The notes below the pieces were generated by a model that searched no databases, had not been told where the DNA came from, and was given only the letters and a program-made list of their open reading frames with translations. Source: Escherichia coli (GTDB lineage: Bacteria > Pseudomonadota > Gammaproteobacteria > Enterobacterales > Enterobacteriaceae). Taken from it: a stretch of 64,000 nucleotides of DNA. The stretch's first letter is position 1; each line of letters opens with the position of its first letter. Positions 1,312 through 27,899 of the stretch are shown piece by piece. The DNA lies in NCBI RefSeq assembly GCF_003334385.1, contig NZ_QOWN01000001.1; one strand, written 5' to 3'. The position numbers were made by a program, and so were the translations under genes.

Positions 1312-1411
1312 GCCTGATGCGCTACGCTTATCAGGCCTACGAAAATCTTGCAATGTATTGAATTTTCATGATTTTGTAGGCCGGATAAGGCGTTCACGCC
1401 GCATCCGGCAA
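1312..1411. repeat. REP/BIME-type palindromic repeats
   Basis: Two inverted REP-like units (gcctgatgcgctacgcttatcaggcctac and gtaggccggataaggcgttcacgccgcatccggc) typical of E. coli intergenic BIMEs. Confidence 0.7.
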
Positions 1412-11471: not shown

Positions 11472-11572
11472 ACATCGTAGCCGATGAGGACGCGCCTGAT
11501 GGGTGTTCTGGCTACCTGACCTGTCCATTGTGGAAGGTCTTACATTCTCGCTGATTTCAGGAGCTATTGATT

Positions 11573-11986
11573 ATGCGTAACTTTGATTTATCCCCGCTTT
11601 ACCGTTCTGCTATTGGATTTGACCGTTTGTTTAACCACTTAGAAAACAACCAGAGCCAGAGTAATGGCGGCTACCCTCCGTATAACGTTGAACTGGTAGA
11701 CGAAAACCATTACCGCATTGCTATCGCTGTGGCTGGTTTTGCTGAGAGCGAACTGGAAATTACCGCCCAGGATAATCTGCTGGTGGTGAAAGGTGCTCAC
11801 GCCGACGAACAAAAAGAGCGCACCTATCTGTACCAGGGCATCGCTGAACGCAACTTTGAACGCAAATTCCAGTTAGCTGAGAACATTCATGTTCGTGGTG
11901 CTAACCTGGTAAATGGTTTGCTGTATATCGATCTCGAACGCGTGATTCCGGAAGCGAAAAAACCGCGCCGTATCGAAATCAACTAA
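11573..11986 (+). CDS. ibpA: Small heat-shock protein IbpA (alpha-crystallin family)
   Basis: ORF 11567-11986; start [12 protein letters not shown], 137 aa. Confidence 0.95.
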
Positions 11987-23387: not shown

Positions 23388-23881
23388 CAGGAAGTCAGGT
23401 CATTGATGCTGAAGAGGACAGGCATAAACTGGTTGTAGAGTACAAGGATGCTCTGCAACCTGCCGATTTTTATCACAATTTCAAACAGCGGGGCATCCGC
23501 TCCGTACAGCTCATTCCCTATCTTGAATTTGATGACCGGGGCGATCTGACGGCCGCTTCGGTGACAGCAGAGCTGTGGGGGAAATTTTTAATTGCCCTGT
23601 TCGATTGTTGGGTGCGGGCAGATATCAGTCGTATCTCGATTGAGCTTTTTGACGCCACCTTACAAAAATGGTGTGGCAGCGAAAACCCGCAACCGCGCTG
23701 TGACTGCCAGGCGTGCGACTGGCATCGCCTGTGCCCGCACGCTCGGCAGGAGACGCCAGACAGCGTGCTTTGTGCGGGCTATCAGGCGTTTTATTCTTAC
23801 TCCGCACCGCATATGCGGGTGATGCGTGATCTGATAAAGCAGCATCGTTCTCCCATGGAGCTGATGACGATGCTGCGGTGA
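23384..23881 (+). CDS. yidF: Uncharacterised protein YidF
   Basis: 165 aa, Cys-rich; last gene of yidHGF. Confidence 0.8.
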   Translation: MTGSQVIDAEEDRHKLVVEYKDALQPADFYHNFKQRGIRSVQLIPYLEFDDRGDLTAASVTAELWGKFLIALFDCWVRADISRISIELFDATLQKWCGSENPQPRCDCQACDWHRLCPHARQETPDSVLCAGYQAFYSYSAPHMRVMRDLIKQHRSPMELMTMLR

Positions 23882-23888
23882 CGTGCGC

Positions 23889-25073
23889 TTAAACGGGCTG
23901 CCCCTGATGCGACATCCGCGTCGCCAGCGGCAGCCAGCACAGCACGATCAACAATCCCATTAAGGTCATCAACAACCCCAGGCTGCCCTGACCGGTTTGC
24001 GGCAACATCGCAGAGAGCGACGCCAGCACGCCGGAACCAATGTTTTGCAGACCGCCGACCAGCGCGCCAGCCGTGCCCGCCAGGAAGGGGAACGGCTCCA
24101 TCGCGCCGCTGGTCGCCAGCGGAAACAGCATCCCGGCACCGAAAAAGAACAGCGCGGCGGGAACGAGCAGCGTCCAGACATTCATCACGCCAAACCAGTC
24201 GGGGATCCACATCAGCAAGCCAGCCAGCAGGCAGCAGATAACCGACTGCCACATTAACGTGGAGAAGCGTTTATTGGGACGTCCGGCAAACCATGCGCCA
24301 AAAAACGCTGCCGGAATCGGCAGAATAAACAAAATACTGACCGTCATACTGCTCAGCCCTAACACCGCGCCCATCAGCACGCCGGAGCAGGCTTCAAAGG
24401 CGGCAATCCCGGCCAGACCGCCAATCAGCATCAGCAAATAACAGTTAAAACCGCTGTTACCGAAAAGCGTTTTATAACTGGTAAGCAGGCGCGTGCGCGG
24501 TGCATCGACCGGACGCGTTTCCGGCATCCAGCGGGCCATACTGAAGGTCACACCAGCACAAAGAACCAACAAAAAGAGATAACAGGCGCGCCAGTTCCAC
24601 ATCGTATCCAGCAGACCGCCGATTAGCGGTGCGAGCAACGGACTGACGAGAATCCCCATGTTTAACAGGCTGTTAGCATGGCGCAACTGTGTCCGTTCAT
24701 ATAAATCTCGCGGTAAAGTACGCGCCATTACGCCGCCAACGCCGGTGCCCATCCCCTGCATCGCGCTGGCGGCAATCAACACCGTCAAACTGGAGGTCGT
24801 GACCGCGACCAGCGTTGCCAGCATAAAAATGGACATTCCGACGAGGATCACCGGTCGGCGGCCCACGCGGTCGGAAATCGGGCCATAAAACAGCTGTGAG
24901 ACACCGTAAGTCAGCAGATAAGCGCCCATTACGCTCTGCACCGCCCCTTCACGGACGTTGAGATCGCGCGCCATATCGGCAATAGCTGGAATATAAATGG
25001 TTTGCGCCATCTGACCGACGGCCACGAGTAATACCAACATCAATAACAAATTGACGTTTCTTTGCCTTTTCAT
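23889..25073 (-). CDS. emrD: Multidrug efflux MFS transporter EmrD
   Basis: ORF 23889-25079; start MKRQRNVNLLLML (394 aa); MFS topology. Confidence 0.92.
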   Translation of the reverse strand: MKRQRNVNLLLMLVLLVAVGQMAQTIYIPAIADMARDLNVREGAVQSVMGAYLLTYGVSQLFYGPISDRVGRRPVILVGMSIFMLATLVAVTTSSLTVLIAASAMQGMGTGVGGVMARTLPRDLYERTQLRHANSLLNMGILVSPLLAPLIGGLLDTMWNWRACYLFLLVLCAGVTFSMARWMPETRPVDAPRTRLLTSYKTLFGNSGFNCYLLMLIGGLAGIAAFEACSGVLMGAVLGLSSMTVSILFILPIPAAFFGAWFAGRPNKRFSTLMWQSVICCLLAGLLMWIPDWFGVMNVWTLLVPAALFFFGAGMLFPLATSGAMEPFPFLAGTAGALVGGLQNIGSGVLASLSAMLPQTGQGSLGLLMTLMGLLIVLCWLPLATRMSHQGQPV

Positions 25074-25249
25074 TATCACGGATGCTTTTATAAAAATAAT
25101 TAGAATAAGTCACTACGCATTCCCATAAATGCGGGAGAGGAATCTATCACATTGATGAATGTTAGCCAGATATACGCCAGGAATGGGGAATTGTTTAGCG
25201 GCAGAATATGTAAACAAAAGCGGCAATAAATGTTGCCGGGAGAGATGGT

Positions 25250-25282
25250 AGGGCGGATAAGATGCGTCAGCATCGCATCCGA
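25250..25282. repeat. REP-like palindromic element
   Basis: ggcggataagatgcgtcagcatcgcatccgac resembles the REP consensus. Confidence 0.55.
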
Positions 25283-25302
25283 CACCAACCCGCACGCTAA
25301 AT

Positions 25303-25330
25303 ATAAAAGGGGAGCGGTTTCCCGCTCCCC
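25303..25330 (-). terminator. Rho-independent terminator downstream of tisB
   Basis: Hairpin ggggagcgg-ttt-cccgctcccc; on the minus strand it is followed by a U-run. Confidence 0.7.
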
Positions 25331-25352
25331 TTTGGTGCGACTTGAATCTGAA

Positions 25353-25442
25353 TTACTTCAGGTATTTCAGAACAGCATCAAGCAGTTGCAGTGCTGCAAC
25401 AATGAGTTTGAGGATAAGAATGGCGATATCCACCAGGTTCAT
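25353..25442 (-). CDS. tisB: SOS-induced toxic membrane peptide TisB (type I toxin, 29 aa)
   Basis: Minus-strand translation reads MNLVDIAILILKLIVAALQLLDAVLKYLK; too short for the ORF track; lies between emrD and ivbL as in E. coli. Confidence 0.9.
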   Translation of the reverse strand: MNLVDIAILILKLIVAALQLLDAVLKYLK

Positions 25443-25545
25443 ACGCGTCTCCTGTGGTTCAGGAGCACTGCCAGCTGACGTACCTTTCCGCTGCCTGTTG
25501 CCAGCTGTTGTGCACGCGGTATCTCAAGGAGAAACGTTGTGCTTG

Positions 25546-25566
25546 TTGACATAACACAGTGTGCTC
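25546..25566 (-). promoter_or_regulatory. Probable IstR-1 pairing (standby) site in the tisAB 5' UTR
   Basis: gttgacataacacagtgtgct is 20/21 identical to the 5' end of the putative IstR-1 (25804-25824) on the same DNA strand, so the minus-strand mRNA is complementary to the plus-strand sRNA; about 105 nt upstream of the tisB start. Confidence 0.6.
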
Positions 25567-25678
25567 ACGCGGGGTTAAGGCGCTGACGGCACCACCCGTT
25601 TCAGCCAGGACTTAGTGCGCCGGGTAACGATGCGGCCCCCGCATAACACATTGCGTACAGTGATATTATAGAAGTTTA

Positions 25679-25694
25679 CTGTATAAATAAACAG
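25679..25694. promoter_or_regulatory. LexA box (SOS operator) between divergent tisAB and istR promoters
   Basis: CTGTATAAATAAACAG matches the CTGT-N8-ACAG consensus exactly. Confidence 0.85.
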
Positions 25695-25802
25695 TAATAT
25701 TTGGACAAAACGCAAACTGTGATCGATACTCAACTATGCACTAAATACGTCAAAATTCGTGCCGAAATTGCGCGTTCTGCGCGGAACACGTATACTTTCA
25801 GT

Positions 25803-25877
25803 GTTGACATAATACAGTGTGCTTTGCGGTTACCAGCCGCAGGCGACTGACGAAACCTCGCTCCGGCGGGGTTTTTT
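25803..25877 (+). ncRNA. istR: Small antisense RNA IstR-1 (antitoxin to tisB); 5' end approximate
   Basis: About 75 nt ending in hairpin plus U-run (cctcgctccggcggggtttttt); its 5' segment repeats the tisAB UTR target site; IstR-2 would start further upstream near the LexA box. Confidence 0.6.
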
Positions 25878-26006
25878 GTTATCTGCAATTCAGTACAAAA
25901 CGTGATCAACCCCTCAATTTTCCCTTGCTGAAAAATTTTCCATTGTCTCCCCTGTAAAGCTGTGCTTGTATAAATATTGTTAAACACAAAACCAACAAGG
26001 TCCCCA

Positions 26007-26105
26007 ATGACTACTTCCATGCTCAACGCAAAACTACTACCAACTGCGCCATCCGCCGCAGTGGTCGTCGTGCGTGTGGTGGTGGTCGTCGGCAATGCGC
26101 CGTAG
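26007..26105 (+). CDS. ivbL: ilvB operon leader peptide
   Basis: 32-aa ORF MTTSMLNAKLLPTAPSAAVVVVRVVVVVGNAP with a Val/Leu-rich attenuation tract; missing from the ORF track because of size. Confidence 0.9.
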   Translation: MTTSMLNAKLLPTAPSAAVVVVRVVVVVGNAP

Positions 26106-26129
26106 GGACTGGAACAACACACGATTCCA

Positions 26130-26167
26130 AAACCCCGCCGGCGCAAACCGGGCGGGGTTTTTCGTTT
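26130..26167 (+). terminator. ilvB attenuator terminator
   Basis: Hairpin ccccgccggcgcaaaccgggcgggg followed by tttttcgttt, between leader peptide and ilvB. Confidence 0.8.
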
Positions 26168-26210
26168 AAGCACCTCCCGGAAAGTCGGCCCAGAAGAAAA
26201 GGACTGGAGC

Positions 26211-27899
26211 ATGGCAAGTTCGGGCACAACATCGACGCGTAAGCGCTTTACCGGCGCAGAATTTATCGTTCATTTCCTGGAACAGCAGGGCATTAAGATT
26301 GTGACAGGCATTCCGGGCGGTTCTATCCTGCCTGTTTACGATGCCTTAAGCCAAAGCACGCAAATCCGCCATATTCTGGCCCGTCATGAACAGGGCGCGG
26401 GCTTTATCGCTCAGGGAATGGCGCGCACCGACGGTAAACCGGCGGTCTGTATGGCCTGTAGCGGACCGGGTGCGACTAACCTGGTGACCGCCATTGCCGA
26501 TGCGCGGCTGGACTCCATCCCGCTGATTTGCATCACTGGTCAGGTTCCCGCCTCGATGATCGGCACCGACGCCTTCCAGGAAGTGGACACCTACGGCATC
26601 TCTATCCCCATCACCAAACACAACTATCTGGTCAGACATATCGAAGAACTCCCGCAGGTCATGAGCGATGCCTTCCGCATTGCGCAATCAGGCCGCCCAG
26701 GCCCGGTGTGGATAGACATTCCTAAGGATGTGCAAACGGCAGTTTTTGAGATTGAAACACAGCCCGCTATGGCAGAAAAAGCCGCCGCCCCCGCCTTTAG
26801 CGAAGAAAGCATTCGTGACGCAGCGGCGATGATTAACGCTGCCAAACGCCCGGTGCTTTATCTGGGCGGCGGTGTGATCAATGCGCCCGCACGGGTGCGT
26901 GAACTGGCGGAGAAAGCGCAACTGCCTACCACCATGACTTTAATGGCGCTGGGCATGTTGCCAAAAGCGCATCCGTTGTCGCTGGGTATGCTGGGGATGC
27001 ACGGCGTGCGCAGCACCAACTATATTTTGCAGGAGGCGGATTTGTTGATAGTGCTCGGTGCGCGTTTTGATGACCGGGCGATTGGCAAAACCGAGCAGTT
27101 CTGTCCGAATGCCAAAATCATTCATGTCGATATCGACCGTGCAGAGCTGGGTAAAATCAAGCAGCCGCACGTGGCGATTCAGGCGGATGTTGATGACGTG
27201 CTGGCGCAGTTGATCCCGCTGGTGGAAGCGCAACCGCGTGCAGAGTGGCACCAGTTGGTAGCGGATTTGCAGCGTGAGTTTCCGTGTCCAATCCCGAAAG
27301 CGTGCGATCCGTTAAGCCATTACGGCCTGATCAACGCCGTTGCCGCCTGTGTCGATGACAATGCAATTATCACCACCGACGTTGGTCAGCATCAGATGTG
27401 GACCGCGCAAGCTTATCCGCTCAATCGCCCACGCCAGTGGCTGACCTCCGGTGGGCTGGGCACGATGGGTTTTGGCCTGCCTGCGGCGATTGGCGCTGCG
27501 CTGGCGAACCCGGATCGCAAAGTGTTGTGTTTCTCCGGCGACGGCAGCCTGATGATGAATATTCAGGAGATGGCGACCGCCAGTGAAAATCAGCTGGATG
27601 TCAAAATCATTCTGATGAACAACGAAGCGCTGGGGCTGGTGCATCAGCAACAGAGTCTGTTCTACGAGCAAGGCGTTTTTGCCGCCACCTATCCGGGCAA
27701 AATCAACTTTATGCAGATTGCCGCCGGATTCGGCCTCGAAACCTGTGATTTGAATAACGAAGCCGATCCGCAGGCTTCATTGCAGGAAATCATCAATCGC
27801 CCTGGCCCGGCGCTGATCCATGTGCGCATTGATGCCGAAGAAAAAGTTTACCCGATGGTGCCGCCAGGTGCGGCGAATACTGAAATGGTGGGGGAATAA
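26211..27899 (+). CDS. ilvB: Acetolactate synthase I large subunit
   Basis: 562 aa; TPP-enzyme motifs (GDGSLMMNIQE). Confidence 0.95.
   Translation: MASSGTTSTRKRFTGAEFIVHFLEQQGIKIVTGIPGGSILPVYDALSQSTQIRHILARHEQGAGFIAQGMARTDGKPAVCMACSGPGATNLVTAIADARLDSIPLICITGQVPASMIGTDAFQEVDTYGISIPITKHNYLVRHIEELPQVMSDAFRIAQSGRPGPVWIDIPKDVQTAVFEIETQPAMAEKAAAPAFSEESIRDAAAMINAAKRPVLYLGGGVINAPARVRELAEKAQLPTTMTLMALGMLPKAHPLSLGMLGMHGVRSTNYILQEADLLIVLGARFDDRAIGKTEQFCPNAKIIHVDIDRAELGKIKQPHVAIQADVDDVLAQLIPLVEAQPRAEWHQLVADLQREFPCPIPKACDPLSHYGLINAVAACVDDNAIITTDVGQHQMWTAQAYPLNRPRQWLTSGGLGTMGFGLPAAIGAALANPDRKVLCFSGDGSLMMNIQEMATASENQLDVKIILMNNEALGLVHQQQSLFYEQGVFAATYPGKINFMQIAAGFGLETCDLNNEADPQASLQEIINRPGPALIHVRIDAEEKVYPMVPPGAANTEMVGE

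What the first reader, a model, noticed from the sequence alone, without database searches (positions are those of the whole stretch)
25303..25877. Complete tisB/istR type I toxin-antitoxin locus missed by the ORF track
Between emrD and ivbL the minus strand encodes the 29-aa TisB toxin exactly. A consensus LexA box lies about 240 bp upstream. On the plus strand there is an sRNA-sized unit ending in a terminator whose 5' 21 nt are repeated (20/21) at the expected standby site in the tisAB leader. This matches the published architecture and is a useful internal control that short features can be read from this sequence.
Basis: partly seen in the sequence, partly recalled or inferred. Interest (0 to 1): 0.3.

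Follow-up and report, generated by a model that had tools for sequence, protein, structure and literature searches.

The report
Known tisB/istR-1 toxin-antitoxin locus, confirmed
This stretch is the well-studied E. coli tisB/istR-1 toxin-antitoxin locus, base-for-base identical to the laboratory strain K-12, so it is a correct reading of an already known system and not a discovery.

Summary

- **Identity:** Window 23880-27495 has no mismatch to E. coli K-12 MG1655, the strain in which tisB/istR-1 was characterised.
- **TisB:** The 29-aa ORF at 25353-25442(-) passes both curated TisB equivalog models.
- **IstR:** Rfam istR matches full length (150 bits) at 25748-25877(+).
- **LexA box:** It lies at 25677-25696, 235-254 bp upstream of the tisB ATG.
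- **Antisense pair:** The IstR-1 5' 21-mer (25803-25823) recurs at 25545-25565. That is +94..+114 of the tisAB mRNA, inside the published standby region and about 100 nt upstream of the tisB ribosome-binding site.

Two refinements:
- The single DNA difference is a U·G wobble in the RNA duplex, so all 21 positions pair.
- "TisB exactly" means the K-12 N2 allele, which is the minority form in E. coli.

In 13 loci from Citrobacter, Salmonella, Siccibacter, Franconibacter and others, the repeat pairs at 20-21 of 21 positions. It lies 247-258 nt upstream of istR-1 at the same emrD-ilvB site. One both-sided A·U to G·C change was seen.

Verdict: observation confirmed, interpretation supported, already known, low interest. 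It is useful only as an internal control.

The parts
25306..25333 (-). tisAB intrinsic terminator: 12-bp perfect stem, 4-nt loop, then a T-run
   Evidence: inverted repeat I1, 100% complementary
25353..25442 (-). tisB coding sequence, 29 aa plus stop, K-12 N2 allele; hydrophobic (GRAVY 1.62)
25448..25453 (-). tisB Shine-Dalgarno AGGAGA (+206..+211). Predicted mostly paired: P(unpaired) about 0.2 in the +1, +42 and +106 mRNAs
   Evidence: RBS AGGAGA listed in PMC11264685
25439..25552 (-). tisA ORF (37 aa, AUG at +107). The literature reports no evidence that it is translated; it is only patchily recoverable as an ORF in other genera
   Evidence: (no family); PMC11264685
25545..25565 (-). IstR-1 target in the tisAB leader (+94..+114), overlapping the published single-stranded standby region (+85..+111 = 25574..25548). 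The +106 RNase III end is at 25553
   Evidence: PMC6690012
25582..25609 (-). 5' stem-loop (+50..+64) and pseudoknot stem 2 right arm (+73..+77) of the active +42 mRNA. The +42 processing site is at 25617
   Evidence: mapped from nucleotide identities given in PMC7708055
25658..25670 (-). tisAB promoter -10 TATAAT (25670..25665) and transcription start +1 at 25658 (G; K-12 coordinate 3853337)
   Evidence: -10 TATAAT listed in PMC11264685
25677..25696 (.). LexA box TACTGTATAAATAAACAGTA. It ends 6 nt upstream of the tisAB -10 and 5 nt upstream of the istR-2 -35
25702..25730 (+). istR-2 promoter: -35 TGGACA, 17-nt spacer, -10 GATACT
   Evidence: same hexamers in PMC11264685
25738..25877 (+). IstR-2 (140 nt), the SOS-induced long form
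   Evidence: RefSeq annotation mapped; Rfam istR 25748-25877
25768..25796 (+). istR-1 promoter: -35 TTGCGC, 17-nt spacer, -10 TATACT
   Evidence: same hexamers in PMC11264685
25803..25877 (+). IstR-1 antitoxin sRNA (75 nt from 25803; RefSeq gives 25805). Nt 1-21 are antisense to the tisAB leader, nt 1-12 are predicted unpaired, then an internal hairpin and the terminator hairpin 25852-25875

Best explanation

Sequence-based steps, shown here:
- A LexA box sits between two divergent promoters, ending 6 nt upstream of the tisAB -10.
- The tisAB transcript starts at 25658 and runs leftward to the terminator at 25333-25306. It carries tisB far downstream (AUG at +217) behind a paired ribosome-binding site.
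- istR-1 is transcribed rightward from its own sigma-70-type promoter.
- The first 21 nt of IstR-1 form 21 contiguous pairs (20 Watson-Crick plus one U·G) with +94..+114 of the tisAB mRNA.

Steps taken from the literature on this identical sequence, not tested here:
- LexA represses tisAB until DNA damage occurs.
- The primary +1 mRNA is translationally inert. Removal of 41 nt gives the active +42 mRNA, in which a single-stranded region about 100 nt upstream of the RBS, together with a 5' pseudoknot, acts as an S1-dependent ribosome standby site.
- Constitutive IstR-1 pairs across that region. This blocks standby binding and triggers RNase III cleavage to the inert +106 mRNA.
- When SOS induction makes tisAB mRNA exceed IstR-1, TisB is made. 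[quoted passage not shown]
For: - Identity to MG1655 over 3.6 kb with 0 mismatches, and RefSeq annotation of tisB, IstR-1 and IstR-2 at these places.
- PGAP annotation of tisB in genomes 100% identical to the window.
- TisB equivalog models are passed.
- Rfam istR matches full length at 150.1 bits against a gathering score of 45.
- The LexA box and the 21-mer pair are both unique in the window with 0 expected.
- The 21-bp duplex scores -33.5 kcal/mol.
- The numbering from PMC7708055 fits only +1 = 25658, which lies 7 nt after TATAAT. This places the duplex at +94..+114, the +106 end inside it and the AUG at +217.
- The predicted +1 structure pairs the 5' tail with +84..+105. P(unpaired) for +85..+105 is 0.11 in the +1 mRNA and 0.37 in the +42 mRNA, while the SD/AUG stays at about 0.2.
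- IstR-1 folds with a free 12-nt 5' tail and two hairpins, z = -4.05.
- In 13 of 13 loci from other genera with enough flank, the leader copy lies 247-258 nt upstream and pairs at 20-21 of 21 positions. Position 7 changes on both sides (A·U to G·C) in 6 loci.
- Those loci show the same emrD-tisB-istR-ivbL-ilvB synteny.
- Mechanism comes from PMC6690012, PMC7708055, PMC4147584, PMC5668327 and PMC2826370.
Against: - Nothing in the sequence argues against it.
- No expression, toxicity or cleavage was measured here. The mechanism rests on published work with the identical K-12 sequence.
- The in-silico rise in standby accessibility from +1 to +42 is modest (0.11 to 0.37) and the minimum-free-energy folds ignore the pseudoknot.
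- Cross-genus covariation is thin: one both-sided column, and 6 of 13 loci carry one true mismatch.
- The search pattern fixed 8 of the 21 positions in istR, which limits the variation that could be seen.
- The window as a whole is not MG1655, so the trans-acting background (LexA, RNase III, S1) is assumed, not shown.
Confidence: 0.97

Rival explanations
1. Not a real feature: a chance 29-codon ORF, a chance palindrome and a chance repeat in an intergenic region.
For: Short ORFs are abundant: 30 ORFs of at least 20 aa overlap this 1.6 kb. The bare core CTGT-N8-ACAG is expected 0.64 times per window by chance.
Against: - The full 20-nt LexA consensus and the 21-mer repeat each have 0 expected hits.
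- Curated TisB and istR models are passed by wide margins.
- The architecture recurs in 13 loci from other genera.
- The region is identical to the annotated K-12 locus.
Confidence: 0
2. The locus is present but is a decayed or non-functional allele in this strain, for example with a broken promoter, pairing or peptide.
For: tis/istR is polymorphic in E. coli. About 23% of 5426 complete genomes hold less than 80% of this intergenic region, and some lack tisB and istR entirely. PMC11264685 reports 15% with no match and 3% interrupted.
Against: There are no differences from MG1655 across 23880-27495. All promoter hexamers, the LexA box, the RBS, the ORF, the duplex and both terminators are intact.
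Confidence: 0.01
3. The 21-nt pairing silences tisB only by RNase III-dependent mRNA destruction, or IstR-2 is the operative antitoxin. Competition with standby ribosomes would then not be the operative step.
For: - The +106 cleavage end lies inside the duplex, and tisB mRNA rises in rnc or istR-1 mutants (PMC4147584).
- IstR-2 contains the same 21 nt.
- The predicted accessibility gain of the standby region is modest.
Against: - PMC6690012 shows IstR-1 displacing 30S subunits and protein S1 from the +42 mRNA and blocking in-vitro translation in purified systems.
- In the predicted folds the antisense tail is less open in IstR-2 (0.75) than in IstR-1 (0.97).
Confidence: 0.02

Closest known systems
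tisB/istR-1 (tisAB-istR) of E. coli K-12 MG1655, b4618/b4616
   Same: Everything. The DNA is identical over 3.6 kb, with the same TisB, IstR-1/IstR-2, LexA box, promoters, duplex and terminators.
   Different: Only the surrounding genome differs. Elsewhere the window carries IS3/IS256-family elements matching UPEC-type genomes, so the strain is not MG1655.
Dominant E. coli tis/istR allele (TisB N2S, e.g. L004 and the B lineage)
   Same: Same architecture and the same 21-mer pair. There are no differences at 25545-25565 or 25803-25823 in L004.
   Different: Codon 2 is AGC (Ser) instead of AAC (Asn), T25438C on the + strand. PMC11264685 reports N2S in 85% of loci and finds it more toxic at low induction.
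[quoted passage not shown]
   Same: A small membrane toxin, a long structured 5' UTR, 5' processing to an active mRNA, and a trans-encoded sRNA pairing far upstream of the RBS. dinQ is also LexA-controlled (PMC5668327, PMC7708055).
   Different: The peptides and RNAs are not homologous. dinQ +44 does not use ribosome standby, and AgrB acts by refolding the mRNA to sequester the SD (PMC5668327).
hok/sok
   Same: Type I TA with an inert primary mRNA, processing to an active form, and RNase III cleavage of the toxin mRNA-antitoxin duplex (PMC4147584).
   Different: Sok is cis-encoded and overlapping, and acts through the mok leader ORF. hok mRNA is activated by 3' processing. There is no LexA control and no distant standby site.

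Membership tests
tisB/istR-1 type I toxin-antitoxin locus | A 29-aa hydrophobic TisB peptide matching the curated TisB family | tested here: met
   NF011340 scores 69.6 bits (cut-off 53) and TIGR04459 scores 59.9 bits (cut-off 38), both over 1-29/29. GRAVY is 1.62. The peptide is identical to YP_001165331.1 by coordinate mapping.
tisB/istR-1 type I toxin-antitoxin locus | An IstR sRNA gene (Rfam RF01400) transcribed divergently from tisAB and not overlapping it | tested here: met
   RF01400 scores 150.1 bits against a gathering score of 45, full model, at 25748-25877(+). tisAB +1 is at 25658 on the minus strand, and 79 bp separate it from the IstR-2 start.
tisB/istR-1 type I toxin-antitoxin locus | A LexA box at the tisAB promoter in the shared intergenic region | tested here: met
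   25677-25696 matches 18/20 of the consensus with 0 expected by chance. It ends 6 nt upstream of the -10 TATAAT. CTGT-N8-ACAG is present in 12 of 13 loci from other genera.
tisB/istR-1 type I toxin-antitoxin locus | The 5' 21 nt of IstR-1 are complementary to the tisAB 5' UTR, about 100 nt upstream of the tisB RBS, at the standby region | tested here: met
   There are 21 contiguous pairs (20 Watson-Crick plus one U·G) at -33.5 kcal/mol. The target is +94..+114, against the published +85..+111; the SD is at +206. The pair is conserved at 20-21 of 21 positions in 13 loci.
tisB/istR-1 type I toxin-antitoxin locus | Chromosomal position between emrD and ivbL-ilvBN | tested here: met
   The same synteny holds in Citrobacter, Salmonella, Pseudenterobacter and others.
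tisB/istR-1 type I toxin-antitoxin locus | A structurally sequestered tisB RBS, and an inert +1 mRNA whose 5' tail masks the standby region | tested here: inconclusive
   Predictions agree in direction. SD/AUG P(unpaired) is about 0.2 in all isoforms, and +85..+105 is 0.11 in +1 against 0.37 in +42. These are thermodynamic predictions without the pseudoknot, not probing data.
tisB/istR-1 type I toxin-antitoxin locus | SOS induction of tisAB, TisB toxicity with membrane depolarisation, IstR-1-dependent RNase III cleavage, and S1-dependent standby | not testable with these tools
   These are taken from PMC2826370, PMC4147584, PMC6690012 and PMC7708055. All used MG1655 sequence, which is identical to the window here.

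The most novel reading that the evidence does not exclude
The single difference between istR-1 and its target, a C-to-T change at IstR-1 position 11, was seen only in the two Escherichia sequences among 15 loci. It makes a central U·G wobble two nucleotides from the +106 RNase III end. This could be a lineage-specific tuning of antitoxin strength. More broadly, the two 21-22-nt copies could be paralogous remnants of a leader duplication kept in step across Enterobacteriaceae. My tests found no significant similarity or pairing beyond the 21-mer, so the duplication idea has no support beyond the repeat itself.
Probability: 0.08. Interest if true: 0.2.

Novelty: already known. Interest (0 to 1): 0.04.

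Why it matters
It matters only as a control. It shows that a tool-free reading of raw sequence correctly recovered a 29-codon toxin gene, a LexA operator, a 75-nt sRNA and a 21-nt trans-antisense pairing, all of which length-filtered ORF calling would skip. The biology is established: an SOS-induced membrane toxin, ribosome standby, and persister formation. This window adds nothing new to it. The small additions made here are descriptive:
- The pairing is U·G-complete.
- The pairing and the synteny hold across several enterobacterial genera.
- The tisA ORF is only patchily recoverable in other genera.

Tried and rejected
1. Extended homology between the tisAB leader and istR beyond the 21-mer, suggested by repeat D4 and by AGGCG(A)CTGACG. 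Local alignment scores 17, and 65 of 1000 shuffles do as well. On the upstream side 573 of 1000 do as well. Rejected as not significant.
2. Extended RNA-RNA pairing. duplexfold of full IstR-1 against the +42 mRNA gave -78 kcal/mol. The part outside the 21-mer (-40.3) is reached by 44/500 and 39/500 dinucleotide shuffles. Rejected.
3. The window being K-12 itself. The 3.6 kb around the locus is identical. However, 58400-60600 matches UPEC-type genomes with IS3/IS256 elements, and UPEC132 itself lacks tisB. I did not try to identify the source strain.
4. tisA as a conserved gene. It has no NCBIfam family. tblastn recovers it, often only partially, in 8 of the 14 other-genus loci, and the two truncated loci could not fully show it. 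This agrees with the literature that there is no evidence of translation.
5. A third 12-mer copy at 25642-25653 (D1). It lies at +6..+17 of the primary transcript, in the tail that the +1 fold pairs with the standby region. This is compatible with the published model and was not pursued.
6. Weak sub-threshold Rfam hits in the region (P6, STnc310, BSnc120, RsmY, naRNA4). They are terminator or REP look-alikes well below gathering scores.
7. Pfam could not be run on TisB, because 29 aa is below the tool's 30-aa minimum.
8. Two literature queries failed on term syntax.

Full report
**Observation**

Reading 25000-26200 and listing ORFs of at least 20 aa shows a 29-codon ORF at 25353..25442 on the minus strand, MNLVDIAILILKLIVAALQLLDAVLKYLK. 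A 37-codon ORF (tisA) lies upstream at 25439..25552. Short ORFs are common here: 30 overlap this 1.6 kb. The ORF alone is therefore not evidence. The peptide passes both curated NCBIfam TisB equivalog models over its full length: NF011340 at 69.6 bits (cut-off 53) and TIGR04459 at 59.9 bits (cut-off 38).

The palindrome TACTGTATAAATAAACAGTA lies at 25677-25696. It matches the LexA consensus TACTG(TA)5CAGTA at 18 of 20 positions. It is the only such site in the 64-kb window, with none in 100 shuffles. The bare CTGT-N8-ACAG core alone would not be significant, at 0.64 expected. The box lies 235-254 bp upstream of the tisB ATG.

On the plus strand, Rfam istR (RF01400) matches end to end at 25748-25877 with 150.1 bits against a gathering score of 45. 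The match ends in a 10-bp hairpin plus T-run at 25852-25875.

The 21-mer GTTGACATAATACAGTGTGCT at 25803-25823 recurs once, at 25545-25565, with one difference. No other match with up to 3 mismatches exists and none is expected (repeat D2). All parts of the observation are therefore real, at the stated coordinates, and beyond chance.

**Identity**

A megablast of 25080-26010 finds the region in 5425 of 5426 complete E. coli genomes. Some are 100% identical, and PGAP annotates tisB, ysdE and ivbL there. Aligning the window to MG1655 gives no mismatch and no gap over 23880-27495. The RefSeq features map as follows:
- emrD 23889-25073(-)
- ysdE 25155-25229(+)
- tisB 25353-25442(-)
- IstR-2 25738-25877(+)
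- IstR-1 25805-25877(+)
- ivbL 26007-26105(+)

The locus is thus the very sequence on which the tisB/istR-1 literature is based. The window as a whole is not MG1655. Positions 58400-60600 are 100% identical to UPEC-type genomes and carry IS3- and IS256-family transposases. UPEC132 itself lacks tisB.

**Anatomy**

PMC7708055 gives nucleotide identities at numbered mRNA positions: CC50/51, G54, C55, G57, and C74 A75 G76 C77. Only one start site fits them, window 25658, a G lying 7 nt after the -10 TATAAT at 25670..25665. This places the other features as follows:

| Feature | mRNA position | Window coordinate |
|---|---|---|
| +42 processing site | +42 | 25617 |
| 5' stem-loop | +50..+64 | 25609..25595 |
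| Pseudoknot right arm | +73..+77 | 25586..25582 |
| IstR-1 target | +94..+114 | 25565..25545 |
| +106 RNase III end | +106 | 25553 |
| tisA AUG | +107 | 25552 |
| Shine-Dalgarno AGGAGA | +206..+211 | 25453..25448 |
| tisB AUG | +217 | 25442 |

The target overlaps the published single-stranded standby region +85..+111 (PMC6690012). It lies about 92-100 nt upstream of the RBS, as published.

The LexA box ends 6 nt upstream of the tisAB -10 and 5 nt upstream of the istR-2 -35. The istR-2 promoter is TGGACA-17-GATACT (25702-25730). The istR-1 promoter is TTGCGC-17-TATACT (25768-25796). These are the same hexamers tabulated in PMC11264685.

First, the single DNA difference is T25813 in istR against C25555 in the leader copy. 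It places IstR-1 U11 opposite mRNA G104. The RNA duplex therefore has 21 contiguous pairs, 20 Watson-Crick and one U·G, at -33.5 kcal/mol. This fits the literature's '21 nt of complementarity' (PMC4147584).

Second, RefSeq starts IstR-1 at 25805 (73 nt). A 21-nt antisense tail requires a start at 25803, which lies 7 nt after the -10. The repeat itself extends one base further, to 25802.

Third, the peptide is the K-12 N2 allele. PMC11264685 reports N2S in 85% of E. coli loci. L004 shows exactly that change, T25438C.

**Mechanism**

Sequence and predictions agree with the published model. IstR-1 folds with nt 1-12 free (P(unpaired) 0.97), an internal hairpin and the terminator hairpin. Its energy is -32.5 kcal/mol, z = -4.05. 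In IstR-2 the same tail is predicted to be less open, at 0.75.

In the predicted +1 mRNA the 5' tail pairs with +84..+105. P(unpaired) for +85..+105 is 0.11. Removing 41 nt raises it to 0.37. The SD/AUG stays at about 0.2 in all isoforms. These are modest thermodynamic predictions that ignore the pseudoknot.

The causal steps come from experiments on this identical sequence:
- LexA repression and 1,000-fold induction by ciprofloxacin, and TisB-dependent persisters (PMC2826370).
- The inert +1, active +42 and inert +106 mRNAs, and S1-dependent standby blocked by IstR-1 (PMC6690012).
- A 5' pseudoknot required for standby (PMC7708055).
- RNase III dependence (PMC4147584).
- Two-layer RNA control of toxin expression (PMC5668327).

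**Related loci**

One scan of species-representative genomes with a degenerate istR pattern gave 14 loci. They come from Citrobacter, Salmonella enterica subsp. arizonae and diarizonae, Siccibacter, Franconibacter, Pseudenterobacter and unnamed Enterobacteriaceae. Thirteen have enough upstream DNA to analyse.

In all 13, a leader copy lies 247-258 nt upstream of istR-1 and pairs at 20-21 of 21 positions. Seven are fully paired and six have one true mismatch. Twelve of the 13 have a CTGT-N8-ACAG box 115-126 nt upstream. A 29-aa TisB ORF is present wherever the sequence reaches that far.

Position 7 is A·U in six sequences (the window and five of the scanned loci) and G·C in six loci, a change on both sides. 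Two loci are discordant at that position. The U·G at position 11 is seen only in Escherichia.

There are caveats. The pattern fixed 8 of the 21 positions in istR, the sequences are related, and there is only one both-sided column. This supports, but does not by itself prove, selection for pairing.

The module sits between emrD and ivbL-ilvB in these genera too. The E. coli genomes that lack it are therefore secondary losses. In them, about 25241-25930 is replaced by about 170 bp of unrelated DNA (L003). About 23% of genomes hold less than 80% of the region. PMC11264685 reports 15% with no match and 3% interrupted.

**Ideas tested and dropped**

Similarity or pairing between the leader and istR beyond the 21-mer is not significant: 65/1000, 44/500 and 39/500 shuffles do as well. 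tisA has no family and is only patchily recoverable as an ORF in other genera.

**Verdict**

The feature is already known in full detail. Its value is as an internal control for reading short features. Interest is low.

Noticed in passing
window 25155-25229 (+): ysdE is a 24-aa small ORF (MNVSQIYARNGELFSGRICKQKRQ) that RefSeq annotates between emrD and tisB. It has no NCBIfam family. It is retained even in genomes that lack tisB/istR (L003).
   Followed up: partly
window 25240-25295; L004 664-837: A REP-like palindromic unit lies between ysdE and the tisB terminator, with a weak sub-threshold naRNA4 hit at 25252-25284(-). A common E. coli variant carries about 139 bp of extra sequence here, apparently additional REP copies.
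   Followed up: partly
window ~25241-25930; L003 1662-1820; L019: The whole tis/istR module is a presence/absence polymorphism. In UPEC132-type genomes about 690 bp are replaced by about 170 bp of unrelated sequence, with ysdE and ivbL kept. About 23% of 5426 complete genomes hold less than 80% of the region. Synteny in other genera implies secondary loss.
   Followed up: partly
window 25437-25439 (tisB codon 2): The window carries the K-12-type TisB N2 allele. The dominant E. coli allele is N2S (T25438C on the + strand, seen in L004), which PMC11264685 reports as more toxic at low induction.
   Followed up: yes
window 58400-60600 (ALIL pseudoknot 59205-59321, +): This segment holds an IS3-family transposase with its frameshift pseudoknot, an IS256-family transposase and an ATP-dependent nuclease gene. 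It is 100% identical to UPEC-type genomes, and only 263 genomes hold at least 80% of it. The window's strain is therefore not MG1655 despite the identical tisB region.
   Followed up: partly
window 11507-11579 (+) and 1333-1375 (-): There are two Rfam gathering-level hits elsewhere in the window. One is a ROSE_2 RNA thermometer (100.4 bits), presumably the ibpA 5' UTR. The other is the ES036/CssrF sRNA (44.8 bits).
   Followed up: no
window 25439-25552 (-); loci L005-L018: PMC11264685 reports that more than 99% of E. coli tis/istR loci keep the 37-aa tisA ORF. tblastn recovers it, often only partially, in 8 of the 14 other-genus loci. This suggests the conservation is at the RNA level and not the protein level.
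   Followed up: partly
window 25642-25653 (+6..+17 of the tisAB mRNA): A third, partial copy (CATAACACATTG, 11/12) of the core of the IstR-1/target repeat lies in the 41-nt tail that is removed to make the active +42 mRNA. In the predicted +1 fold this tail pairs with the standby region.
   Followed up: partly
window 25221-25238 (-): A second terminator-like hairpin (CGGCAACATTTATTGCCG plus a T-run) lies on the minus strand downstream of the tisB terminator and upstream of emrD. It overlaps the 3' end of ysdE.
   Followed up: no
L007 (Enterobacteriaceae bacterium RIT714): This is the only one of the 13 analysable other-genus loci without a strict CTGT-N8-ACAG box in the 700 bp upstream of istR-1, although TisB and the 21-mer pair are intact.
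   Followed up: no
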